From a virus, in IMG/VR virus record IMGVR_UViG_3300022924_000016, positions 77,324 through 141,323 of that record: a stretch of DNA of 64,000 nt; one strand, 5' to 3'. Each line of letters begins with the position of its first letter. Position 1 is the stretch's first letter. This document shows, piece by piece, positions 27,742-63,483 of the stretch. A model generated the notes under the pieces. That model saw nothing but the letters and a program-made list of their open reading frames with translations. It did no database searches and had not been told where the DNA came from. The position numbers and the translations under genes are program-made.

Positions 27742-28077
27742 ATGACAACAGAACTAACTAAAGACATTTGGAATAACTTCATAGCAATTCCATTCAACAA
27801 AAACAAGTCACACAACTTTTCGGTAAAAGATTTGAAAACAATCATAGAAAAGCATTTAGGTAAGGAAGAAGTAAAGAAACAGTTTAAACCTTTTAAAGTT
27901 GGAGAAGTTTACCAAACCAAAGGGCAAGTTTCAGAACCGTTCAAAATCGCGGAAATAAAAACTAAAATAAAAGAAGGCAAAACAGTTCCATATTACTTTA
28001 ACGGATTTTATTTAAACAGAGAACACTTAGGAATTTGTCCAATAAACGCAGAACAATTAATACAGAAAATAAGATGA
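27742..28077 (+). CDS. Hypothetical protein
   Basis: ORF; ATG at 27742 preferred. Confidence 0.55.
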   Translation: MTTELTKDIWNNFIAIPFNKNKSHNFSVKDLKTIIEKHLGKEEVKKQFKPFKVGEVYQTKGQVSEPFKIAEIKTKIKEGKTVPYYFNGFYLNREHLGICPINAEQLIQKIR

Positions 28078-29572: not shown

Positions 29573-30019
29573 ATGGAAAATAAAACTTTAGAATTCGTAA
29601 GGGAGTTCAACACAGCATTAGGAGAAACAGATGAATATCTTTGCTTAAATTATAATCAAGATGGATTTTCAGAATCAATTACATTTCCAAAGCAGATTTT
29701 ATGGGATGATAATAATGACAATGAAGATTTTCAGAAACAGCATACACTGTCAAGGCTGTATAGAATCTTGATTCATACAGAAGAAGTGGTTCAGCAATTT
29801 ATAGTAGATGAAGTAGATAAGTTTTTTGCGGAAAAAGTAAGACAGAGTGAAGAAAAGTTTTCAAATATAAAATTAAATTTAGACAGACAAACAAAATGCT
29901 TATATAAATTATCTGTAGAAGGTAATTATAATGAGGATAGAATGGAAGAATTTGTAGATATTTTTAAAGAAGATTTTCAATACCTTTTTGAAGGTTTTAA
30001 ATTAGAATATGAGTACTAA
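29573..30019 (+). CDS. Hypothetical protein
   Basis: ORF. Confidence 0.6.
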   Translation: MENKTLEFVREFNTALGETDEYLCLNYNQDGFSESITFPKQILWDDNNDNEDFQKQHTLSRLYRILIHTEEVVQQFIVDEVDKFFAEKVRQSEEKFSNIKLNLDRQTKCLYKLSVEGNYNEDRMEEFVDIFKEDFQYLFEGFKLEYEY

Positions 30020-30263
30020 AACTGTATCACAATTCATTCAATAAATAAAAAATGAGACAAATAGGTAAACAAAAACTTTCATACTTACAAATTATAGATA
30101 GATGCAATTTTAATTTTATGCCTTGCGTAATTTATACATCGAATGAAGAAAAATCAAAGAATAATTTCTTAAGTTTTCTAGATTATTTAAAAAAGGATTA
30201 TAAGGTAGTAGACAATATAGTTGAGTTAAATTTAAGGGAAGTAGAATTTAAAAACGTAAAAGG

Positions 30264-30770
30264 ATGATAACAGAAGGACAATTTATAATAGGGGTAACAT
30301 TAATTTATTGGATAACATTTATAATTTTATGGAGAAAAGCTTGCGATGAAGCTATAGATTGGGTTTTTAATATTTTTCTTAATTTACTTTTATCAGTTTT
30401 TCTAATGTTTGGTACTTTATCTTTGGACGTAAAAGAACAGAGGATAAATTACGAGTATTATTGTAAGATACAATCTCTCAAAAATTCCAATGATATACAA
30501 GGCAGTTTTGTTTTGGGGACAGGTTCAGTGGAGCAAGTCGAATACTACTATTATTATTTTAAAGATATCAATGGTTATTTCAGGCGCGGCAAAAAACAAG
30601 TAGAAAACACAGTTATTGAAGAAAGAGGAGGAACGCCACACATAGAAAGAAAATACATAAAAAGGGTATCAATAACAGGTATTGTAAAATCTTATAAAGA
30701 CCAACCTTCAGAAGAATATAAAATAGTAGTGCCTAAAGGAACAGTTATTAACAAATTTGAAGTATATTAG
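30264..30770 (+). CDS. Membrane protein
   Basis: Two N-terminal hydrophobic helices; GSFVLGTGSV..YYYY segment. Confidence 0.6.
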   Translation: MITEGQFIIGVTLIYWITFIILWRKACDEAIDWVFNIFLNLLLSVFLMFGTLSLDVKEQRINYEYYCKIQSLKNSNDIQGSFVLGTGSVEQVEYYYYYFKDINGYFRRGKKQVENTVIEERGGTPHIERKYIKRVSITGIVKSYKDQPSEEYKIVVPKGTVINKFEVY

Positions 30771-30772
30771 AT

Positions 30773-31711
30773 ATGAAAGTAAAAGGCTACACAATAGAAG
30801 ATAAAGGAGTAAATGTATTGATTTTTCCAAGCACAACTTTAGTAAAGAGTAAAGTAAACGGCAAGACATTTGAAGCAAGTGGAGAAGTTACAGTAGACAA
30901 TTTCAATGATTTAGTGAGGCTTAATACTAAGACAAGAGTTAAGTCAATCCAGCACAAAGAAACCAAAGAAGAAATAAGTGAAGTTGAATACTTAGATCGC
31001 GAGAAAAAACTTCTAGAAAAAAGAAAATATGATAAAGACGAATACACGCATTATTGGGAAAACCTAGACGATGAATTCAACTACAGAAAATTCATAGCTT
31101 CCTATGATAACGTTTTAGAAACAGTTTATGAAGAAGAGGAAGTCATTGTGGAAGAACAAAAGAAAGTACTCTTAGACACAAACCATCCTTTCATAAAATC
31201 TAAATTTCAAAATTCAGGAGAGATTTCAGATGTGTGCGTGTACAATAAATTTTCTGCTTATAAAGAAATTCTAAAAGAAAAGATGGATGAAATCGGAGCA
31301 GTAGAACTTCCAGGAGGAGGTTTTAGTGACCCGACAGAGGGAAAATTGTCTTGGGCAAATTCCACACATTCTTGTATCAGATATGCTAAATTTGCGGGAG
31401 GCTATTTATTCGATGATTCTTATGATGTAAAGAGTGTCAGAGTCGGAACATTTGAAGCTTTGAAAGAGGAGTATGAAAATGATAAATTGCGCATAAGAAA
31501 AATTATACAAGACAAATATCTTTTAAAATTTGGAAAATTCAATGAAGAAAAGACACCTTTAGTTTTAGAAGCCTTAAATAAAATTGAAGTGGCTTACAGA
31601 ACCTTGCAAAATCTAAAACCTATGAAGTCAAGTTATAATGACAAATCCTCGGCGATGAAAAGCATAAGGGAAGCAAAAGAATTATTAAACAGTAGTTTTA
31701 AAGTAGAGTAA
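30773..31711 (+). CDS. Hypothetical protein
   Basis: 312-aa ORF. Confidence 0.7.
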   Translation: MKVKGYTIEDKGVNVLIFPSTTLVKSKVNGKTFEASGEVTVDNFNDLVRLNTKTRVKSIQHKETKEEISEVEYLDREKKLLEKRKYDKDEYTHYWENLDDEFNYRKFIASYDNVLETVYEEEEVIVEEQKKVLLDTNHPFIKSKFQNSGEISDVCVYNKFSAYKEILKEKMDEIGAVELPGGGFSDPTEGKLSWANSTHSCIRYAKFAGGYLFDDSYDVKSVRVGTFEALKEEYENDKLRIRKIIQDKYLLKFGKFNEEKTPLVLEALNKIEVAYRTLQNLKPMKSSYNDKSSAMKSIREAKELLNSSFKVE

Positions 31712-31877
31712 ATATGGAATTAGAATTTTACAAGTGGTTAGATGAAGCTCTTGAAGAATTTTGTAGAGAAAGATACATAAGACCAGGGGAGGTATTACCT
31801 ACCATAAACATAACCAAGGCAAAACTTTCTTTTATTAAAGGTATTTCGGCGAAAGAATATTTAAAAACAGTTTAGTT

Positions 31878-32423
31878 ATGAACACAGAAAAAAGAACAAC
31901 AGTAGACTTTAGCAAACACATCATCCTAGAAAGTCACTACCAAGACGGGGAATATAATTTAGATGTGTGGGATTTCAAACTACCTGATAGTAATTATAGA
32001 CATAGAATAACATTCATAAACAGTTGTGGTATTTTAGCCGTAAAAGGAGATTTTGGAAATTGGATATTTTGCAGAGAATTTCATCCTTCTAAAAATGGAT
32101 TTGTTTCGGGTGGATATTGGGATGAGAAACTAGCAATAAGTTCTCAGCAAGAGTCTTCTAAATATTCAGCAGAAGCTACAAGAAAAGCTATTGAAGAGTT
32201 TGAAAAGAAGCATGAGGATTCACAAGAAGATATAAAAGATTGGATTGGATCCTTAAAAGACTCAGTTGAGGATGAAGAAGAATATATATTCAAAGCTTAT
32301 AGAGAAACTCCAAGAGATATTGATTATGAAGATGTACCTTTTGAAAAAGAGAGACATTACTATCTGAATGTAATTTATGATGCTTTTGATGAAATGTGTA
32401 GAAAAATCGCGGAAAAAGACTAA
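31878..32423 (+). CDS. Hypothetical phage protein
   Basis: ILAVKGDFGNWIF...YWDEKL motif. Confidence 0.65.
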   Translation: MNTEKRTTVDFSKHIILESHYQDGEYNLDVWDFKLPDSNYRHRITFINSCGILAVKGDFGNWIFCREFHPSKNGFVSGGYWDEKLAISSQQESSKYSAEATRKAIEEFEKKHEDSQEDIKDWIGSLKDSVEDEEEYIFKAYRETPRDIDYEDVPFEKERHYYLNVIYDAFDEMCRKIAEKD

Positions 32424-32435
32424 AAACAGCAAAAA

Positions 32436-32609
32436 ATGACCTACATTTACAAACAAAAACAATACGAAATCCTAGACAAAGAACTAGAGCTTAAAAACCC
32501 AGAAACAAGAGAATGGCATAAAGCAGTTTTATATAGGCAAATAGAAACAGGACTTTGGTTTTGTAGGGATAAGAATGAATTTTTTAAATTATTTAGGGAG
32601 GTAGAGTAG
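32436..32609 (+). CDS. DUF1653-like small protein, not in the ORF track
   Basis: MTYIYKQKQYEIL...PETREW..AVLY......WFCRDKNEF. Confidence 0.55.
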   Translation: MTYIYKQKQYEILDKELELKNPETREWHKAVLYRQIETGLWFCRDKNEFFKLFREVE

Positions 32610-32610
32610 T

Positions 32611-34614
32611 ATGAATTTAGATAGTGCAATAGTCTGTGACATAGAATCGGTGGGATTTCTTGATAGTTTAAAGAGCTTTGAAGATTTACACGTATTCTCT
32701 TGCTGTTTTAAATCTGAGGGCACTTGGAAAATAAAGAGCACAAAATCTAAAGAAGACATACAAAAAGTTGTAGGTAATAAGAATAATACACTGATATTTC
32801 ATAACGGAATTTCATATGATAAGCCAGCACTTGAAATTATGGGTTTAGATTTTAAGGCTGAAATAATTGACACATTACCACTAAGCTACTATTTATATAG
32901 TGAAAGAGATAAGCACGGATTAGCCCAATGGGGAGAATTTTTCGGCGTGAAAAAGCCCGAAATAGAGTCGTGGACTGGTCTATCGTATGACGAATATCGA
33001 GTAAGATGTGAAGAGGATTGTAAGATAAATACAAACCTATGGATTATGATTTTAGATTATATGAGAGTGCTGTACGACAATGATGACGAGCTCATAATCA
33101 AAACAATAAGGTATTTGAATCATAAGGCTAATATGCTTTATATTCAAGACCAAAATCCCATATTAATAGATGTAGAGCAGTGCAAGAAGAATTTACAATA
33201 CTTAGAAGGGATAATTTCGGAGAAAGAATTGGAATTAAATGCCATAATGCCTAAAATCCCTATAACTTCTCGAAGAAGTAAGCCCAAGGTAATGTACAAA
33301 AAGACAGGCGACTTATCAGAGGCGGGGATAAAGTGGCAAGAACTGCTTAAAAACTGCAACTTAGAAGAAGATTATGAAGGACAGATAGATGTGGTTACAG
33401 GTTATACGGAGCCTAATTGCCAAAGTTCTGCACAAATGAAAAAATTTCTTATGCAGGAAGGTTGGGTTCCCACAATATTTAAAGATGGGGCAAATGGTAA
33501 AGTTCCTCAGCTAAGGGACGATGAGAAAAATTTATGCCCTAACATACAGAAATTGATAGAAAAAGTTCCAAAACTTCAATCACTTGATGGACTATCTGTT
33601 GCACAACACCGCTCAGGCTATTTAAAGGCTTTCTTAGCTCATATAAATGATAAAGGGTACGCCAAGGCTTGGGCACACTCTTTTACCCGCACATTGCGTT
33701 TAAAACACAGTAATCCATTTGTAAATCTCCCAAAACCTAAGTCTAAATATGGAAACCTAGTTAGAGCCGTTATGATTGCCCCTAAAGGGTATGTTTGTAT
33801 AGGTGCAGATTTATCAAGTATAGAAGATAAGTGCAAGCAGATTTCCATATTTTCTCTAGACAGAGAGTATGTAGAGTCTATGAACAGTAAGGGTTGGGAT
33901 GCACACTTAGCTCTGGGGCTAAAAGCAGGAATGTTTACAGAAGAGGAGGTTCAATTTTATAAATGGTTTAACTCTAAGGATAAAAAAGAAAATGATTACA
34001 CTTGCCCTAAGAGTTTTTCTCACCTTTCAGAGGAAGAGCAAGAAGTACTTTTTGACGTATTAAGTAAGAAAAGGGCTACAAGTAAGACAGGAAATTACGG
34101 ATTGACTTATGGATGTGGTGTGGCTAAACTTATGGAATCCACGGGATTAAGTAAAAAGGAGTCTGAAAACCTACATAAAGGATACCACGCCATAAATTGG
34201 GCGGTTAAAAAATTCGCCCAGGATAGAGTGGTTAAAACTGTCAAGGGTAGGAACTGGTTAAGGCTTAATAAAAAGGCAGGGGGGTTGTCAGAAGTAAATG
34301 AAACAACTTGGATATGGAACGAGTACTCTAATATGTGGCTATTTTTAAAAAATGATAAGGATAGGTTTTCTAGCTGTAATCAGAATTTTGGAGTGAAGGT
34401 TTTTGATGTTTGGAGTTGGTATTTGATTCAAGGAGGTATCACTCCCTCATATCAAGCGCACGACGAACAGCTCTGGTACTGTAAAGAGGAAGAAGTAGGA
34501 AAACATATCAAAATTATAGAGGAAAGTATTACAAAGGTTAATGAAATATTTAATCCTCCTATTCCTTTGGAGTGCGATTATAAGATAGGAAAGACATACG
34601 CGGACGTCCATTAA
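32611..34614 (+). CDS. polA: Family A (T7-like) DNA polymerase with 3'-5' exonuclease
   Basis: ExoI DIES, ExoII HNGISYD, ExoIII YRVRCEED, motif A GADLSSIE, motif B KRATSKTGNYGLTYG, motif C AHDEQ. Confidence 0.92.
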   Translation: MNLDSAIVCDIESVGFLDSLKSFEDLHVFSCCFKSEGTWKIKSTKSKEDIQKVVGNKNNTLIFHNGISYDKPALEIMGLDFKAEIIDTLPLSYYLYSERDKHGLAQWGEFFGVKKPEIESWTGLSYDEYRVRCEEDCKINTNLWIMILDYMRVLYDNDDELIIKTIRYLNHKANMLYIQDQNPILIDVEQCKKNLQYLEGIISEKELELNAIMPKIPITSRRSKPKVMYKKTGDLSEAGIKWQELLKNCNLEEDYEGQIDVVTGYTEPNCQSSAQMKKFLMQEGWVPTIFKDGANGKVPQLRDDEKNLCPNIQKLIEKVPKLQSLDGLSVAQHRSGYLKAFLAHINDKGYAKAWAHSFTRTLRLKHSNPFVNLPKPKSKYGNLVRAVMIAPKGYVCIGADLSSIEDKCKQISIFSLDREYVESMNSKGWDAHLALGLKAGMFTEEEVQFYKWFNSKDKKENDYTCPKSFSHLSEEEQEVLFDVLSKKRATSKTGNYGLTYGCGVAKLMESTGLSKKESENLHKGYHAINWAVKKFAQDRVVKTVKGRNWLRLNKKAGGLSEVNETTWIWNEYSNMWLFLKNDKDRFSSCNQNFGVKVFDVWSWYLIQGGITPSYQAHDEQLWYCKEEEVGKHIKIIEESITKVNEIFNPPIPLECDYKIGKTYADVH

Positions 34615-34635
34615 AGTTAATCTTTACTTAATATA

Positions 34636-34667
34636 TTTGCTTTTCTGAAATACTTTTTGTAAGTTTG
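34636..34667 (+). promoter_or_regulatory. Bacteroidota sigma-70 promoter
   Basis: TTTG 34636-34639, 20-nt spacer, TAAGTTTG 34660-34667. Confidence 0.7.
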
Positions 34668-34678
34668 CAATGTTGAAA

Positions 34679-34801
34679 ATAGAGAGGGCAAGTCTTTATG
34701 AGTAGACAAATTAAAAATAATAAGAATAGCAATAAAATATTTCAAAAAGCTTTCATAGATTGTTTTCACTTGCCCTGAATACAGTCCTTGGGAGCTTTTT
34801 G
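34679..34801 (+). ncRNA. Putative kissing-loop cis-regulatory leader RNA (copy 1)
   Basis: Hairpin loop GGGCAAG (34686-34692) is complementary to hairpin loop CTTGCCC (34769-34775). Confidence 0.65.
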
Positions 34802-34814
34802 TATTTAAGATAGT

Positions 34815-35543
34815 ATGGAAAAATTAACAAACGAACAAAGGCAAGTACTCTTAAGCGGTATTTTGGGAGATGGGCACTTAAAGAATGGAAGAGCAATTTT
34901 TAGTTGTATACACAAGGAGTATATGGAATTAAAAAAGAAGTTATTGGGGGATTTATCTCTACTTGTAGAAAGAAAACAAAACAGCGGTTTTAAAAAAGAT
35001 GCTTTCATCTATAAATTAGGTACTTTGGCACACCCTGAGATAAAAGAGATGGAAAAATACTCTACAAAACGAATTCTTGAAGAGATTGACGAGTTAGGTA
35101 TTGCGCTATGGATTGCAGATGATGGCTCAAGGCACAAGAAGAATAACTTTTATAATATAAATACACACGCATTGCCAAGATATGAAGAGGAGCAACACTT
35201 ACTACCATTCTTTAACAGCATCGGCATATTTCCTAGAATTACCACAGAAACTAAAAAAGATGGTAGATGCTTTTCTTACCTATATATCCCTAAGTGGGAG
35301 GGAGCTATGGAACTTTCGAGAATTCTAAGAAAACTAGAGTTAAATTGCTATGATTATAAGCTTATGCCTATTGAAATGGAGGAGGCATATTTTAGAAACA
35401 AAGATTTAGAAGAGTTCAAAATGGCAAATAGTTATGGGAGAACTAAAATAATTAAGAATGGAATGGGGCTGACATATAAGGACATACTTCATAAGAATGT
35501 CACATCAACAGAAATGAGAATTACTAATAGCGCAAACATATAA
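34815..35543 (+). CDS. Free-standing LAGLIDADG homing endonuclease
   Basis: VLLSGILGDGHL and GIALWIADDGS motifs. Confidence 0.85.
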   Translation: MEKLTNEQRQVLLSGILGDGHLKNGRAIFSCIHKEYMELKKKLLGDLSLLVERKQNSGFKKDAFIYKLGTLAHPEIKEMEKYSTKRILEEIDELGIALWIADDGSRHKKNNFYNINTHALPRYEEEQHLLPFFNSIGIFPRITTETKKDGRCFSYLYIPKWEGAMELSRILRKLELNCYDYKLMPIEMEEAYFRNKDLEEFKMANSYGRTKIIKNGMGLTYKDILHKNVTSTEMRITNSANI

Positions 35544-35568
35544 AAATGAAAAATTTGAATGGTCTGAA

Positions 35569-35874
35569 TTGGATAAGTTGTGGGAAAATACATTTCCTAA
35601 TACTAAAATTATATTTTCAATGTTTGACTTCGATGAAAATGATTCAGAAAATGTTGTAATACCCACAGTAGATTTTACTTCCGAAATTCCAATTATAAAA
35701 GGAAAGTTTAGTGTAGGGTTTCACACTTGGAAAGGATTGATAACACAATCAGGCACAGATTTGACTTGGAAGAAGCTTATAAAAATTTTAGATAAACATA
35801 ATGATGGAAGCCACATATTCCTAGAGGTTGTAGATGTTATAGGTGATAAGGCTTTTGTATTCTTAGGGTCTTAA
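35569..35874 (+). CDS. Hypothetical protein (start uncertain)
   Basis: TTG start; frame is open upstream to 35518. Confidence 0.5.
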   Translation: MDKLWENTFPNTKIIFSMFDFDENDSENVVIPTVDFTSEIPIIKGKFSVGFHTWKGLITQSGTDLTWKKLIKILDKHNDGSHIFLEVVDVIGDKAFVFLGS

Positions 35875-35918
35875 GTTAAAAAATTCATAAAAAGAATTTA
35901 CTAAAGAAAACTATTAAG

Positions 35919-40568: not shown

Positions 40569-40765
40569 ATACAAATTACACAATTGAAGTAGCAGAGGAA
40601 GCATTTACTTTAAATCATAAAGATAAAACTTATCCCCATAAAACCTTAAAAGACGTACTACAGCAGTACATAAGCTTGGCTTTGGACGAGGATAATTTTG
40701 AATTGGTTTTTAAAAACGCCGAGACAGTAGAAACAAAGATAAAAAGACAGTTTAAAAAGAGATGA
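40550..40765 (+). CDS. Hypothetical protein, tandem paralogue of 40308-40568
   Basis: Same alignment as the upstream paralogue. Confidence 0.6.
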   Translation: MQNFKVDTNYTIEVAEEAFTLNHKDKTYPHKTLKDVLQQYISLALDEDNFELVFKNAETVETKIKRQFKKR

Positions 40766-46592: not shown

Positions 46593-46642
46593 TATAAAAT
46601 TTACACATTTTGTAAACCAATTATAGTTTCGTATTTTTTTTT

Positions 46643-46740
46643 TCAGATTCTTACTGGCATATTTATCTGATATAAACGAATTATTTATTGAGAGACTCTT
46701 TTCATTAACTGTGCCAGCGGTTTTTGATTGGGGTTTTCTT
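46643..46740 (+). ncRNA. Putative kissing-loop cis-regulatory leader RNA (copy 2)
   Basis: Loop CTGGCA (46654-46659) is complementary to loop TGCCAG (46712-46717). Confidence 0.55.
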
Positions 46741-46757
46741 GTTTTTAAGCCGAAGTA

Positions 46758-47864
46758 ATGGAGCATTCAGAGTTTTTAAAAAGATTAGAAAAAAATGAAC
46801 ACTTTGTAAGTGGGTATTTTAAAGTTATAAGTAAATATCAATGTGATAAATGTAAAGTACTGGTTGAAACACCTTATGGGGTTTGTGCATGTGATCCTAG
46901 AAATTTATATGAGCATAATACAAGACCCACAATTATGACAGCGGTTGATAAAAATAGTTACTATTCAAATTATATTAAAGAACACAATGAAAACTATAAA
47001 AATAATAACTTTGAAATTGTTTCAGACTTCATAGGTTTTAATAAGGAGATATTTGTTAAAACAGAATATGGAGTTCATAAAACAACTGCCAATAGCTTAA
47101 AACGAGGAGAGATGCCTGGAATAAACAGTGCTGTTAATAAGGTAGATTATGTTCATAACCAATTAATTGAAACAAACGAATATTACAGAAAAGGACTATT
47201 TAAAGTAATAAGTTATAAAAGAGGAAAAGTCACTTTAGAAGACAGTTTTGGGTTGTGTACTATGTTATTAAATGATTTGGTTAACAACTGTCAACCCACT
47301 ATTTTAAGTGCTGTGGACAAGACAGATTATATTAAAAATAAATTTAAGGATTTAATACACTATGGTAATTATGACTATTCTAAATTTGTATATGATTGTG
47401 CTAGATGTAAATCTATAATAATCTGTAGAGAACATGGTGAATTTTATCAAACCCCCTCAAAACATTTAGGTAACCAAGGGTGTCCTAAATGTGGTAGTAT
47501 AAGAACTGGAAAATATATGCTTGAAAACCCAAATGGTTGGAATTATACGAATTGGCAAAATGCAGGAGATAGAAGTGATAATTTTGACTCATTTAAAGTA
47601 TACATAATCAGGTGTTGGAATGAGCAGGAGGAGTTTTATAAGATAGGAAAGACTTTTGTAACTGTAGAAAGTAGATTTAGGTTAAAACTATTGATGCCGT
47701 ATAATTATGAAATTATTGAACAGTTTATTTTTAATAGCTCAAAAGAAGCATCCAGGTATGAGTTACACTTACAAAAATTGAATAAAAAGTCTACCTATAA
47801 ACCTTTTATTTTATTTAATGGGTCAAATGAATGCTTTAATAAATATTCTTTAACAGTCCTATAG
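46758..47864 (+). CDS. Free-standing GIY-YIG-like (T5orf172/MUG113-type) endonuclease with repeats and Zn-binding motif
   Basis: Three N-terminal repeats ending SAV.K.DY; CREHGEF.Q.P..HL...GCPKC; VYIIRC...FYKIGKT...RF...E..L...F.G.NECF. Confidence 0.7.
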   Translation: MEHSEFLKRLEKNEHFVSGYFKVISKYQCDKCKVLVETPYGVCACDPRNLYEHNTRPTIMTAVDKNSYYSNYIKEHNENYKNNNFEIVSDFIGFNKEIFVKTEYGVHKTTANSLKRGEMPGINSAVNKVDYVHNQLIETNEYYRKGLFKVISYKRGKVTLEDSFGLCTMLLNDLVNNCQPTILSAVDKTDYIKNKFKDLIHYGNYDYSKFVYDCARCKSIIICREHGEFYQTPSKHLGNQGCPKCGSIRTGKYMLENPNGWNYTNWQNAGDRSDNFDSFKVYIIRCWNEQEEFYKIGKTFVTVESRFRLKLLMPYNYEIIEQFIFNSSKEASRYELHLQKLNKKSTYKPFILFNGSNECFNKYSLTVL

Positions 47865-47935
47865 GTACAACTGATACCTCATACTATCAAACCTAATCTT
47901 TTGTTAAATAAAATTTGCAGTTAAAACTAATTGTA

Positions 47936-48004
47936 TATCTTTGTAGAAGAAATCAGGAAAATGATTATTTTTAAGTCTTTTTCCGCCGAAAATTAAATAA
48001 AATG
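47936..48004 (+). repeat. Promoter/5'UTR cassette, copy B
   Basis: TATCTTTGTAGAAGAAAT...TTTTTAAGTCTTTTTCCGCCGAAAATTAAATAAAATG; TTTG at 47914-47917. Confidence 0.7.
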
Positions 48005-54341: not shown

Positions 54342-54506
54342 ATGCACTTAGATCAAGTAATCAAAGACTTAAAAGTTAAACAGTATGGGTATAATGACGT
54401 AGTAGAAGTGCTTCAATCTGTAACGGCTATAAGCAACTCTAAAATTCGACCAAAGGAACTTAAAAAGCACGATGTTATAAGAACTTTTGAAGTCCGCAAT
54501 AAATAA
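54342..54506 (+). pseudogene. N-terminal fragment paralogous to 55887-56300
   Basis: ..LQSVTAISNSKIRPKELKKHDVIRTFEVRNK* vs ..INSITSIETKRPIKLRKGDVIVRECFTTTKKRP; own TATCTTTG at 54308-54315. Confidence 0.6.
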
Positions 54507-54519
54507 TAAATTAACACAT

Positions 54520-54550
54520 TTTGTTTTTAAGATATTAGTCTTTATATTTG
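54520..54550 (+). promoter_or_regulatory. Bacteroidota sigma-70 promoter
   Basis: TTTG 54520-54523, 19-nt spacer, TATATTTG 54543-54550. Confidence 0.7.
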
Positions 54551-54560
54551 CATTAGTATA

Positions 54561-54665
54561 AAGCTGTAGTATCTCACAATAAACAGTTTAATTATTTACA
54601 AACCTATTTATTTACAATAAGAAGCGAGGTGAGATACGCTTTTTAACATGTAAGTAGATAGGTTT
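54561..54665 (+). ncRNA. Putative kissing-loop cis-regulatory leader RNA (copy 3)
   Basis: Loop TATCTCAC (54570-54577) is complementary to loop GTGAGATA (54629-54636). Confidence 0.65.
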
Positions 54666-54678
54666 TATTATTATAAAA

Positions 54679-55395
54679 ATGTGCGAAAATAAAAAGAAAT
54701 GTAATGCCTGTCTTGAGTATAAAACCCTAGATCAATACTCAATAAATTCAGGTCTCAAAAGTCTGAAAAGTGTTTGTAAAAACTGTGAAAAATCACGCAA
54801 AAAGGTTGTCTGTGACAGTAGAAGATCTGCTTTAGGTGAGGTGGGGAAAATTTGTAAAATTTGCAACATAGATAAGCCCCTATCAGATTTTAAACTTTTA
54901 AAAAGCGGCCTTTTAGGAGTAGTCTCAAATTGCAAAACTTGTAAACTCCCTAAAAAAGAACCTATAAAAAGAAAGCTTATATGTGAGTGTGGTAATGAAA
55001 GGAAAGCCAGGAGAAAATTATGTGATAACTGTCAAGAAGAATTAAATAGAAATATAACTGAAAAGTTATGTAGAAAATGCAATAGCATTAAATCCTTAGA
55101 AGAATTTGGTAAAGGTAAATACTGTAAAACCTGTAATCAAGAGGAGTACTATAAAAAGACAGGTAGAGTAAGAAAAGAGCCTAGTTATACAGAAGATGGT
55201 AGAAAAGTCTGCTCGAGATGCAAGGAAACTAAAAACCTGGAGATGTTTTCAAAAGATGGGCACAGACACAGATCTGAATGTAAAATTTGCAGAAGCAATT
55301 TTAGGAAGTTACCAGAACAAAAAGAAAAGGAAAAATTAAATTATAGGAATTACATTGAGAGAAATTACGATAGATACAGAGAATCTTCAAAATAG
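54679..55395 (+). CDS. Multi-CxxC zinc-ribbon repeat protein (N-terminal half of a split HNH endonuclease)
   Basis: Repeated KxCxxC..K.L..F....CKxC units. Confidence 0.7.
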   Translation: MCENKKKCNACLEYKTLDQYSINSGLKSLKSVCKNCEKSRKKVVCDSRRSALGEVGKICKICNIDKPLSDFKLLKSGLLGVVSNCKTCKLPKKEPIKRKLICECGNERKARRKLCDNCQEELNRNITEKLCRKCNSIKSLEEFGKGKYCKTCNQEEYYKKTGRVRKEPSYTEDGRKVCSRCKETKNLEMFSKDGHRHRSECKICRSNFRKLPEQKEKEKLNYRNYIERNYDRYRESSK

Positions 55396-55886: not shown

Positions 55887-56300
55887 ATGCCCAGTAAAGA
55901 GCAAGTTTTAGCAACTGTCAAGAATGAAGCACATTCAGGTGCTATGGTTAAACACTTAATCAACTCAATAACTTCTATTGAAACTAAGCGTCCAATAAAA
56001 CTCCGCAAAGGAGATGTTATAGTCAGAGAATGCTTTACAACTACCAAGAAGAGGCCATATGTTCTGGTAAAAGTACTGAAAGAATTCTCTCTTGCACTAC
56101 CCTTATCTACAACAGAAGACTCTTTAAATTTATGTGAGAGTGATTCAAGATTCTTCAGAACAGGGTTTTTCTCAAACCAATTAGTGACTATAAAGAATCA
56201 AGACGCTATGGATAACTTTGCAGGTATTTACGATAATCCTAGAAGTTTAAACAAGGCTGTAAAAATTATGAAAGAATTCCTAGCTAAAAATCTAAGATAG
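55887..56300 (+). CDS. PemK/MazF-like endoribonuclease with N-terminal extension
   Basis: LRKGDVI...KKRPYVLV...ALPLST...QLVTI...G and a C-terminal helix; TATCTTTG at 55852-55859. Confidence 0.6.
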   Translation: MPSKEQVLATVKNEAHSGAMVKHLINSITSIETKRPIKLRKGDVIVRECFTTTKKRPYVLVKVLKEFSLALPLSTTEDSLNLCESDSRFFRTGFFSNQLVTIKNQDAMDNFAGIYDNPRSLNKAVKIMKEFLAKNLR

Positions 56301-62961: not shown

Positions 62962-63483
62962 TTAAATTTTTGATTTATCGATTGCCAAACCTGCATTAGG
63001 GTAAGACCTACCGCTTTTTATATTTGATATTATTTGCTCTGAAACATTGTATTTTTTGGCAATATCTCTTTGCTTTATTTTATTAGATATAAGAATTCTT
63101 ATTTCAAAAACTTGTTCGTCGGTTAGGGACGAATTATAGCAATCTTTAAAAGTTTTACTCATAAATCCGTTTTTATAAGCGTGGTTTATATTTTCTGATT
63201 GACTACACCATTCTAAATTACAAACTTTATTATTGGACTTATTTCCATCTTTATGATTAACCTGTGGTTTGTTTTCTGGGTTAGGAATGAATGCCGTAGC
63301 TACAACTCTATGCACCAAAAGGTCTTTTCTTTTGCCTTTATGATACATATAGCAAATCTTATATCCTTTAACGTCTCCGTAAGAAATAACGTTTTTGTGC
63401 ATTCTTTTAGTAGAAAATATTACGCCCAAATCATTAACCAAATAATCCAAAATTTCTCCATTAACTTTTACAACTTTTTCCAT
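62962..63483 (-). CDS. HNH endonuclease with C-terminal HTH
   Basis: VHRVVA.AFIPNPENKPQVNHKDGNK.NN...NLEW....EN..HA; QRDIAKKYNVS..IISNIK. Confidence 0.9.
   Translation of the reverse strand: MEKVVKVNGEILDYLVNDLGVIFSTKRMHKNVISYGDVKGYKICYMYHKGKRKDLLVHRVVATAFIPNPENKPQVNHKDGNKSNNKVCNLEWCSQSENINHAYKNGFMSKTFKDCYNSSLTDEQVFEIRILISNKIKQRDIAKKYNVSEQIISNIKSGRSYPNAGLAIDKSKI

What the first reader, a model, noticed from the sequence alone, without database searches (positions are those of the whole stretch)
34636..34815. Kissing-loop RNA leader upstream of the LAGLIDADG endonuclease: first of three structurally equivalent elements
Seen: promoter, then hairpin P1 ATAGAGA-[GGGCAAG]-TCTTTAT (34679-34699), then a long hairpin P2 (34743-34801, CAAAAAGC.../...GCTTTTTG) with loop CTTGCCC, then ATG 13 nt later. 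The two 7-nt loops are exact complements. The same layout, with entirely different loop sequences, precedes the GIY-YIG-like gene (46758) and the Zn-ribbon/HNH gene (54679). I found it before no other gene in the window. Three independent complementary loop pairs and G-U-rich stems argue for a conserved RNA structure on the + strand. Inference: a cis-regulatory system shared by unrelated selfish nucleases. P2 ends in a U-run like a terminator, so loop-loop pairing may tune attenuation or translation of a toxic nuclease, or release a small structured RNA. The distinct loop codes would keep copies from cross-talking. T4-type homing endonuclease genes are known to use simple RBS-sequestering hairpins; I do not recognise this kissing-loop form.
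Basis: partly seen in the sequence, partly recalled or inferred. Interest (0 to 1): 0.88.

Follow-up and report, generated by a model that had tools for sequence, protein, structure and literature searches.

The report
Kissing-loop terminator leader RNA family
In front of the LAGLIDADG endonuclease gene, and of several other accessory genes of this leaf-litter phage, lies a short folded RNA leader in which the tip of a first hairpin base-pairs with the tip of a transcription-stop hairpin; related phages keep that pairing with different letters, so it is a real RNA control element absent from Rfam, but it is not specific to nucleases.

Summary
A full Bacteroidota-type promoter (34636-34667) is followed by P1 (34679-34699, loop GGGCAAG). 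Then come an A-rich linker, P2 (34743-34801, apical loop CUUGCCC, U-run) and the ATG 13 nt later. Copies 2 and 3 (before 46758 and 54679) have the same layout. I found a fourth copy outside the window, before a primase-like/methylase/helicase operon.

The loop-loop pairing is selected. The orthologous copy in a 144-kb relative keeps the promoter and P2 stem but swaps both loops (GUGGAAAGG/CCUUUCCAC to GUAGCACU/AGUGCUAC). Two LAGLIDADG orthologues after polA carry leaders with other codes. In all I collected 15 leaders besides E1, every orthologue group with its own complementary pair. In an 11-element cross-comparison no non-cognate pair reached the weakest cognate one. There is no Rfam match.

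The "nuclease-specific" reading is only partly right. One copy heads a replication operon and another heads no gene. An HNH and a GIY-YIG endonuclease lack the leader, and four LAGLIDADG homologues abut polA without it.

Most likely this is a promoter-proximal terminator gate whose kissing loop tunes read-through or RNA stability. That function is untested. Earlier notes of this scan report the same class on other phage DNA.

The parts
34636..34667 (+). E1 promoter of the Bacteroidota type: -33 TTTG (34636-34639), 20-nt spacer, -7 box TAAGTTTG (34660-34667). The predicted start is about 34672-34674.
   Evidence: Exact match to TTTG-N18-21-TAnnTTTG. There are 8 such matches in the window against 3.2 expected. 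The block is conserved in the orthologous leaders L047, L089 and L090. The consensus itself is from established knowledge.
34679..34699 (+). E1 hairpin P1: 7-bp stem with one G-U pair and a 7-nt loop GGGCAAG (34686-34692). It sits at the 5' end of the predicted transcript.
   Evidence: Sequence; minimum-energy and centroid folds.
34700..34742 (+). E1 A-rich, unpaired linker of 43 nt.
   Evidence: Similar A-rich linkers occur in E5 and L047.
34743..34801 (+). E1 hairpin P2: long, imperfect and terminator-like. Its apical 7-nt loop CUUGCCC (34769-34775) is the exact complement of the P1 loop. The 3' side runs into UUUUUGUAUUU.
   Evidence: Stacking energy of the 9-nt loop match is -19.4 kcal/mol; 2 of 2000 shuffles of the upstream sequence reach it.
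34802..34817 (+). 13-nt tail and the ATG of the LAGLIDADG_2 endonuclease gene (34815-35543). The start codon lies outside P2.
   Evidence: Pfam PF03161, E = 7.8e-8; phrog_11023.
46609..46760 (+). E2 leader: TTTG 46609-46612, imperfect -7 box TATTTTTT 46632-46639, P1 46643-46670 (CUGGCA 46654-46659), P2 46689-46741 (UGCCAG 46712-46717), U-run, ATG 46758. The gene encodes a 368-aa endonuclease (phrog_681) with a GIY-YIG-like C-terminal motif but no Pfam hit.
   Evidence: The orthologue in relative G001 has the same loops, a perfect -7 box and G-U to A-U changes in the P2 base.
54520..54681 (+). E3 leader: promoter 54520-54550, P1 54561-54589 (GUAUCUCAC 54569-54577), 10-nt linker, P2 54600-54665 (GUGAGAUAC 54629-54637), U-rich tail, ATG 54679. 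The gene encodes a 238-aa zinc-ribbon / endonuclease VII-HNH-like protein.
   Evidence: (z = -4.8). An analogous leader precedes an Endonuclease_7 gene in L087 with loops AUGCAA/UUGCAU.

Best explanation
E1 is one member of a family of promoter-proximal leader RNAs, which I call kissing-loop terminator leaders, used by a group of Bacteroidota-type phages of 130-145 kb.

Layout. A host-type promoter starts a transcript whose first nucleotides fold into hairpin P1. An A-rich linker follows. Then comes a long, imperfect hairpin P2 with a U-run, which looks like an intrinsic terminator and ends 9-23 nt (13-16 nt in this genome) before the start codon. The P1 loop and the P2 apical loop pair over 6-9 Watson-Crick base pairs.

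Proposed working, inferred and not shown. Most transcripts, both those from the leader's own promoter and those reading in from the upstream gene, stop at P2 and give an RNA of about 110-135 nt. Only read-through transcripts express the downstream accessory gene or operon (homing endonucleases, a replication module). The loop-loop contact ties the 5' hairpin to the tip of the terminator. It thereby sets how efficiently the terminator closes, how stable the short RNA is, or both. It could also be the structure that an antitermination factor recognises.

Every orthologue group has its own loop letters, so copies within one genome do not pair with each other.

Shown: the structure, its covariation, its position and its distribution. 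Inferred: promoter activity, termination at P2, and the direction of the kissing loop's effect.
For: Structure:
- Both E1 loops are displayed exactly as 7-nt loops.
- Eleven elements folded with the loops held free give P1 plus a long P2. They contain 2-7 G-U pairs each, and the plus strand folds 6-17 kcal/mol better than the minus strand in 9 of 11.

Covariation:
- E4 against its orthologue in G001: flanks, promoter and P2 stem and tail are about 80-90% identical, yet both loops are replaced together.
- E1 against the LAGLIDADG orthologues L089 (AGCUCUGA/UCAGAGCU) and L090 (GGUCGGA/UCCGACC), and against L047 (CUCUCAC/GUGAGAG). All four lie behind polA and share the promoter block.
- E2 against E5, whose genes are paralogous endonucleases of 30% identity: the P2 base GAGA../..UUUUCUYG is kept and the loops differ.
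- Cross-matrix: cognate pairs score -11.5 to -19.4 kcal/mol. The 108 non-cognate pairs average -4.9, and none reaches the weakest cognate pair.
- Shuffle tests: 0-22 of 2000 per element. E4' and E5 were found by homology, not by their loop match, and score 8 and 4 of 2000.

Position:
- 15 of 16 copies end just before a start codon on the same strand (14 before an ATG 9-23 nt on, L039 before a probable GTG).
- Full-consensus promoters sit at E1 and E3.
- P2 is always followed by a U-run.
- No terminator lies between the upstream gene and the leader, so P2 would also stop upstream transcripts.

Enrichment: 5 of 45 loci upstream of endonuclease homologues scored positive, against 0 in matched control stretches.
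Against: There is no expression data at all. The only public run holding this DNA is the source metagenome, so promoter use and 3' ends at P2 are unverified.

The simple terminator scan does not call P2 of E1. Its stem is imperfect, and the U-run partly pairs with an upstream A-run.

Pairing with a terminator's loop does not compete with the terminator stem. The classical antiterminator logic is therefore absent, and the direction of any effect cannot be derived from sequence.

In E3 the P1-P2 linker is only 10 nt. By my own rough geometry, not a tool result, a coaxial cis kiss on a fully formed 28-level P2 would be strained. That could instead point to pairing in trans or to competition with the lower stem.

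One copy (L087:1768-1891) has no gene behind it, which fits a free-standing small RNA as well.
Confidence: 0.55

Rival explanations
1. The short RNA is the functional product. It would be a stable small RNA, bracketed by a 5' hairpin and a terminator hairpin, that acts in trans through its loops. The precedents are P4 CI RNA, P1/P7 c4 RNA and plasmid copy-control RNAs.
For: A consensus promoter directly followed by a terminator is the anatomy of a small-RNA gene. The loops are replaced wholesale on an otherwise conserved scaffold (E4 against E4'), as expected for a specificity determinant rather than for neutral drift. The 11-element matrix shows no cross-pairing as strong as a cognate pair. 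One copy has no gene behind it. The 10-nt linker of E3 strains a kiss in cis (my own estimate).
Against: 15 of 16 copies sit immediately before a start codon in the same orientation, which is the signature of a cis element. Two loops complementary to each other in one molecule would mostly mask each other. No conserved seed or other target was found: extra genomic copies of the loop words are few and inconsistent.
Confidence: 0.2
2. The control is post-transcriptional rather than termination. P1, the kiss and P2 would form a compact 5' cap structure that protects the mRNA from 5'-end-dependent decay. Alternatively P2 is a double-strand RNase processing site like the RNase III sites between phage T7 early genes. 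A third possibility is that the structure sets how well the ribosome loads 13-16 nt downstream.
For: P1 lies within a few nucleotides of the predicted start. P2 is a hairpin of roughly 20-28 stacked levels with internal loops. The distance from P2 to the start codon is short in 15 of 16 copies.
Against: The start codon is never inside the hairpin, so there is no sequestration of the T4 type. A U-run follows every P2, and a stabiliser or a processing site would not need one.
Confidence: 0.15
3. The element is mainly a DNA-level cassette boundary. Like the PeSL promoter/stem-loop cassettes of T4-type phages, it would serve as a patch of homology where accessory genes are swapped.
For: The downstream gene is exchanged exactly at the ATG behind a conserved leader in E4 and E4'. 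At the polA junction different endonucleases sit behind one promoter block. A partial gene duplicate flanks the E3 cassette. PeSL cassettes behave this way (PMC2839356).
Against: This does not explain why two loops 50-75 nt apart co-vary, nor the G-U pairs and the strand asymmetry. It can be true in addition to an RNA function, but not instead of one.
Confidence: 0.06
4. Chance complementarity between an ordinary 5' hairpin and an ordinary terminator.
For: Loosely defined loop-loop matches are frequent, 116 in this genome. Copy 2 alone is weak (z = -1.3; 17 of 2000 shuffles).
Against: Covariation in orthologues, the cross-matrix, the strict scans and the matched controls.
Confidence: 0.01

Closest known systems
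   Same: A strong promoter is followed within about 100-200 nt by an intrinsic terminator ahead of the genes. By default the product is a short RNA, and gene expression needs read-through.
   Different: No Q-like factor or qut-like site is known here. The leader occurs in several copies per genome. Its defining feature, a 5' hairpin kissing the terminator loop with a private code, has no counterpart in lambda.
Regulatory kissing loops inside riboswitch leaders (cobalamin L5-L13, purine L2-L3); my own knowledge
   Same: A loop-loop contact in cis within a 5' leader, in cobalamin switches between a sensor hairpin and the hairpin of the expression platform.
   Different: No conserved ligand-binding core or junction is present. 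The copies share almost no sequence, and the loop letters are free to vary.
Antisense-RNA kissing attenuators and copy-control RNAs (pT181, pIP501, ColE1 RNA I/II, R1 CopA/CopT); my own knowledge
   Same: Fully complementary loops of 6-7 nt, specificity set by the loop letters, and in pT181 and pIP501 the outcome is read at a leader terminator.
   Different: In those systems the partner is a counter-transcript from the opposite strand, so complementarity comes for free. Here both partners lie on the same strand of one leader and must co-evolve.
P4 CI RNA (seqB with seqA/seqC) and P1/P7 c4 RNA; my own knowledge
   Same: An RNA encoded in the leader is complementary to other sites of the same transcript. 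The pairing letters differ between related phages, and the effect is premature termination ahead of replication or anti-repressor genes.
   Different: Those RNAs are processed and act in trans in the immunity of temperate elements, and they pair with linear sites. Here no processing signal, lysogeny module or trans action is shown.
Hairpin control of T-even homing endonuclease genes (I-TevI and relatives); my own knowledge
   Same: A structured leader sits in front of a selfish endonuclease gene, presumably keeping expression low or timed.
   Different: The T4 hairpins bury the ribosome-binding site and start codon. Here the start codon is 13-16 nt outside P2, and the leader also serves genes that are not nucleases.
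PeSL promoter/stem-loop cassettes of T4-type phages (PMC2839356)
   Same: Composite promoter-plus-terminator cassettes at the borders of variable accessory genes. Gene replacement occurs at the cassette.
   Different: PeSLs have one stem-loop placed within or next to the promoter. They have no two-hairpin RNA and no covarying loop pair.

Membership tests
Any Rfam 15 family | Covariance-model score at or above the family's gathering threshold | tested here: not met
   No hits at gathering threshold in the whole window or in nine loci holding other copies. In E-value mode around E1 only chance microRNA and snoRNA hits appeared.
Group I intron carrying a homing endonuclease ORF | An intron core (P3-P9) that interrupts a host gene | tested here: not met
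   No Intron_gpI hit. polA is complete at 667 aa and aligns end to end with a relative whose 666-aa polA is followed by an unrelated gene. No tRNA genes were found.
Intrinsic (Rho-independent) terminator | A stable hairpin directly followed by a U-run | tested here: met
   P2 scores -15 to -27 kcal/mol in the copies of this genome and of G001, and down to -34 in L087, with a U-rich tail in every copy. The simple consensus scan misses E1 because the stem is imperfect.
Intrinsic (Rho-independent) terminator | Transcripts actually end at the U-run | not testable with these tools
   No RNA run holds this DNA.
Riboswitch | A conserved ligand-binding core shared by all members | tested here: not met
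   The copies share only the promoter block. The P1 and P2 sequences are unrelated.
T4-type hairpin that sequesters the translation start of an endonuclease gene | The start codon or ribosome-binding site is paired inside the hairpin | tested here: not met
   The ATG lies 13-16 nt beyond the last P2 pair in E1-E3.
Kissing-loop terminator leader (uncatalogued class noted repeatedly by this scan) | Promoter, then a 5' hairpin, then a terminator-like hairpin just before the first gene, with the two apical loops complementary | tested here: met
   E1-E4 in this genome and 12 further copies in related DNA.
Kissing-loop terminator leader (uncatalogued class noted repeatedly by this scan) | The loop pair is kept through changes on both sides in homologues | tested here: met
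   E4 against E4'; E1 against L089, L090 and L047; the cross-matrix.
PeSL-type regulatory cassette | A single stem-loop embedded in or next to an early promoter, repeated at both ends of variable ORFs | tested here: inconclusive
   The context, gene replacement at the cassette, matches. The anatomy differs, and I did not find a second copy at the 3' border of the cassettes.

The most novel reading that the evidence does not exclude
The loop letters are addresses under diversifying selection. The abundant terminated leader RNA would feed back in trans on nascent copies of its own leader only. It would compete with or complete the cis kiss and thereby set termination. Each selfish or accessory cassette would then own a private, RNA-only autoregulatory channel. 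When related phages co-infect one cell and recombine, cassettes with different addresses could not silence or activate each other. This would be an incompatibility or immunity system at the level of single genes.
Probability: 0.18. Interest if true: 0.85.

Novelty: new variant of a known kind. Interest (0 to 1): 0.7.

Why it matters
If the gate model holds, this is a compact way to build many mutually independent transcription gates from one RNA design. It needs no protein and no antisense promoter. That bears on how large virulent phages time and limit the expression of toxic or selfish genes, and it offers natural orthogonal parts for RNA-based circuits in Bacteroidota.

It also shows that the same homing endonuclease at the same polA junction can be expressed in two ways. 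In some relatives it is translationally coupled to polA. In others it sits behind its own gated promoter.

The family is absent from Rfam, and I found no description in the searched literature. A covariance model and a Term-seq experiment would turn it into a defined RNA class.

Tried and rejected
- Group I intron idea (three endonuclease genes, each behind structured RNA): rejected. There is no Rfam hit and polA is intact.
- Leader peptide: E1 holds a 26-codon ORF (34698-34778), but the other copies have none. Rejected as a general feature.
- Extra targets of the loops: the 9-mers of E1 recur once each, at window 27921 and at 34000 inside polA. The other loop words show no pattern. Not pursued.
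- blastn of the polA/E1 region against GenBank phages: no match.
- IMG/VR scans with polA, the LAGLIDADG protein and the primase-like protein gave one distant relative or none. A scan with the conserved promoter block returned only chance hits besides G001.
- Expression: no RNA holder listed. The only run holding the DNA is the leaf-litter metagenome it probably came from.
- The 45 metagenome records could not be opened as whole records.
- A first brute-force hairpin scan timed out and was replaced.
- FopS/GibS small RNAs of Bacteroides were checked as a possible known family. They are defined by a conserved seed and have no kissing loops.
- I built no covariance model and ran no count of structure pairs. 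Helix lengths vary too much for MAFFT to keep P1 and P2 in register. Covariation was therefore scored with my own scripts.

Full report
WHAT IS THERE. The window is the right-hand 64 kb of a 141,323-bp phage-like contig (32.8% G+C) whose ends overlap. Between the stop of a complete family-A DNA polymerase gene (32611-34614) and the ATG of a LAGLIDADG_2 endonuclease gene (34815-35543) lie 200 nt. They read, in order:
- a promoter of the Bacteroidota type: TTTG at 34636-34639, a 20-nt spacer, TAAGTTTG at 34660-34667 (an exact consensus match);
- hairpin P1 (34679-34699) with the 7-nt loop GGGCAAG;
- a 43-nt A-rich linker;
- hairpin P2 (34743-34801) with the apical 7-nt loop CUUGCCC;
- a U-rich tail, and the ATG 13 nt after P2.

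RNAfold, without any constraint, puts both heptamers in 7-nt loops (z = -2.8). The same holds for copies 2 and 3, although copy 2 taken alone is weak (z = -1.3).

IS IT MORE THAN CHANCE. A loose definition is not. Any two small hairpins with 6-nt complementary loops within 130 nt occur 116 times in the genome. The full layout is rare. It requires a long strong hairpin with a U-run just before a start codon, and its apical loop must match a loop of an upstream hairpin.
- A strict scan of both strands of this genome and of a 144-kb relative returned only true copies.
- A relaxed scan gave 6 hits in this genome against 0-4 in six shuffles.
- Among the 112 genes of the two genomes with an upstream gap of 70 nt or more, the long strong hairpins that end just before the ATG carry the loop complement at -13 kcal/mol or better in all cases but one. 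Weaker hairpins have nothing better than -8.9.
- Shuffling each upstream region reaches the observed match in 0-22 of 2000 trials.

COVARIATION, THE DECISIVE EVIDENCE. A fourth copy, E4, lies outside the window on the minus strand at about 40588-40735 of the contig. Its loops are GUGGAAAGG/CCUUUCCAC.

A collinear relative, G001 (IMG/VR UViG_3300023118_000008; 70-93% nucleotide identity, mosaic), has the orthologous leader. The upstream gene, the promoter, the P2 stem and the tail are about 80-90% identical. Both loops, however, are replaced together, by GUAGCACU/AGUGCUAC.

Copy 2 has an orthologue with the same loops, and its P2 base differs by G-U to A-U changes. G001 also has a leader, E5, before a 30%-identical paralogue of the copy-2 endonuclease. 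It keeps the P2 base GAGA../..UUUUCUYG and the tail, but has loops UGGCGG/CCGCCA.

For the finding's own element I found three counterparts behind polA. They share the promoter block and nothing else:
- L047, before a different endonuclease, with loops CUCUCAC/GUGAGAG;
- L089, before a LAGLIDADG orthologue of 63% identity, with AGCUCUGA/UCAGAGCU;
- L090, before a LAGLIDADG orthologue of 61% identity, with GGUCGGA/UCCGACC.

Further copies precede endonuclease homologues in L035, L037 and L039 and an Endonuclease_7 gene in L087.

In an 11 x 11 comparison, cognate loop pairs score -11.5 to -19.4 kcal/mol. The 108 non-cognate pairs average -4.9, and none reaches the weakest cognate pair. Stems contain 2-7 G-U pairs each, and the plus strand folds better than the minus strand by 6-17 kcal/mol in 9 of 11 elements. 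This is therefore an RNA of the coding strand, not a DNA palindrome.

WHAT IT GOES WITH. The leader is not a nuclease accessory.
- E4 heads an operon of a primase-like protein (BT4734-like_N plus PriCT_1), two small proteins, a Dam-type methylase and an SF2 helicase. Its orthologue heads a 301-aa protein of no known family, followed by an 87-aa protein, a GIY-YIG endonuclease and the helicase. The replacement starts exactly at the ATG.
- One copy in L087 is followed by about 600 nt without an ORF or a significant fold.
- Conversely, the HNH_3 endonuclease at 62962-63483(-) has only a promoter and an unstructured 99-nt gap.
- Four LAGLIDADG homologues (58-74% identity) abut or overlap the polA stop codon with no leader.
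- 39 of 45 loci with homologues of the copy-2 endonuclease lack it (counting L053, which is E5, as a carrier).

The leader is thus a property of a set of related phages of 130-145 kb. It sits at junctions where accessory genes are exchanged. The polA junction holds a LAGLIDADG gene here, but a different endonuclease in G001 and in L047. The copy-3 cassette is flanked by a diverged partial duplicate of the neighbouring 137-aa gene.

HOW IT PROBABLY WORKS. Shown: the anatomy above. Inferred: the promoter is active; P2 terminates both the leader's own transcripts and those arriving from the upstream gene, since no other terminator intervenes; the downstream gene is expressed only by read-through.

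This is the anatomy of a promoter-proximal terminator gate, of which lambda PR'-6S RNA-tR' is the textbook case. The kissing loop is the new part. Because it pairs with the terminator's loop and not with its stem, it cannot act as a classical antiterminator. It could slow or help closure of the lower P2 stem, lock the 5' and 3' hairpins of the short RNA into a nuclease-resistant body, or form the shape that a factor recognises. I cannot decide the direction from sequence.

I put 0.9 on "a real, selected RNA structure" and 0.55 on "a transcription gate at P2". The rest is shared between a trans-acting small RNA with private addresses (0.2), post-transcriptional control of stability, processing or translation (0.15), and a mainly recombinational role (0.06, which is compatible with the others).

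COMPARISON WITH WHAT IS KNOWN. No Rfam 15 family matches any copy. Full-text searches found no description. The FopS/GibS small RNAs of Bacteroides are unrelated.

The nearest mechanisms are listed here, each with its main difference:
- lambda-type promoter-proximal terminators, which have no kiss;
- the cobalamin and purine riboswitch kissing loops, which depend on a conserved ligand core;
- antisense kissing attenuators, whose partner comes from the other strand;
- P4 CI and P1 c4 RNAs, which are processed, act in trans and belong to immunity systems;
- T4 endonuclease hairpins, which bury the start codon;
- PeSL cassettes, which share the genomic context but have one stem-loop.

Earlier notes of this scan describe the same class on other phage DNA. 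I did not check those genomes. My results agree with them and add three things: the swapped-loop orthologue, the non-nuclease copy, and the two expression modes of one endonuclease.

VERDICT. This is a new variant of a known kind, a leader gate with a covarying kissing loop. It is not catalogued and its function is untested.

Noticed in passing
window 54342-54506 and 55887-56300: The 54-aa ORF just upstream of leader E3 is a diverged copy (33% identity) of the first ~47 residues of the 137-aa gene that follows the HNH cassette. In relative G001 the same promoter drives the 137-aa gene directly. This looks like a scar of cassette insertion by recombination.
   Followed up: partly
window 34698-34778: Inside leader E1 a 26-codon ORF starts in the 3' arm of P1 and stops just after the P2 loop. 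No other copy of the leader has such an ORF, so it is probably fortuitous.
   Followed up: partly
L087:1768-1891 and 1895-2500: A well-formed leader (loops CCUUCAC/GUGAAGG, 89-nt P2, z = -5.1) is followed by about 600 nt with no ORF, no Rfam hit and no significant fold (z = -0.5). It may be an orphan leader, a decayed cassette or a free-standing small-RNA gene.
   Followed up: partly
L086:774, L087:10001, L088:383, and the contig of P0003: In four relatives the LAGLIDADG gene starts 0-23 nt after, or overlaps, the polA stop codon, which suggests translational coupling. Here and in L089 and L090 it sits behind its own promoter and leader. These are two expression modes for one homing endonuclease at one site.
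   Followed up: partly
window 29573-35900 against G001:91003-96263: The relative G001 has no counterpart of this polA block. It carries a different 5.2-kb block instead, ending in leader E5 and a 491-aa endonuclease. I did not determine which polymerase G001 uses.
   Followed up: no
window 27921 and 34000: The 9-mers of the E1 kiss recur once each on the plus strand: AGGGCAAGT at 27921 and ACTTGCCCT at 34000 inside polA. About 0.2 copies per strand are expected. This could be chance or a further pairing partner.
   Followed up: no
window 62962-63483 (-): A 173-aa HNH_3 endonuclease with an HTH tail has only a consensus -7 box and an unstructured leader. It is a homing-type nuclease without the kissing-loop element.
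   Followed up: yes
genome 7521-7715 (-), outside the window: A 195-nt intergenic stretch folds into a multi-branched structure of -37.5 kcal/mol closed by AAUAGCC/GGCUAUU. It is not a member of the leader family. I scanned only the window, not this region, for tRNA genes or Rfam families.
   Followed up: no
G001:89329 (-): This is the only long strong pre-ATG hairpin in the two genomes without a loop partner (-19.6 kcal/mol, 60 nt, 5-nt loop).
   Followed up: no
window 47914-47943: A full-consensus promoter lies directly after the copy-2 endonuclease gene and before the gene at 48002. It would restore transcription downstream of the cassette.
   Followed up: no
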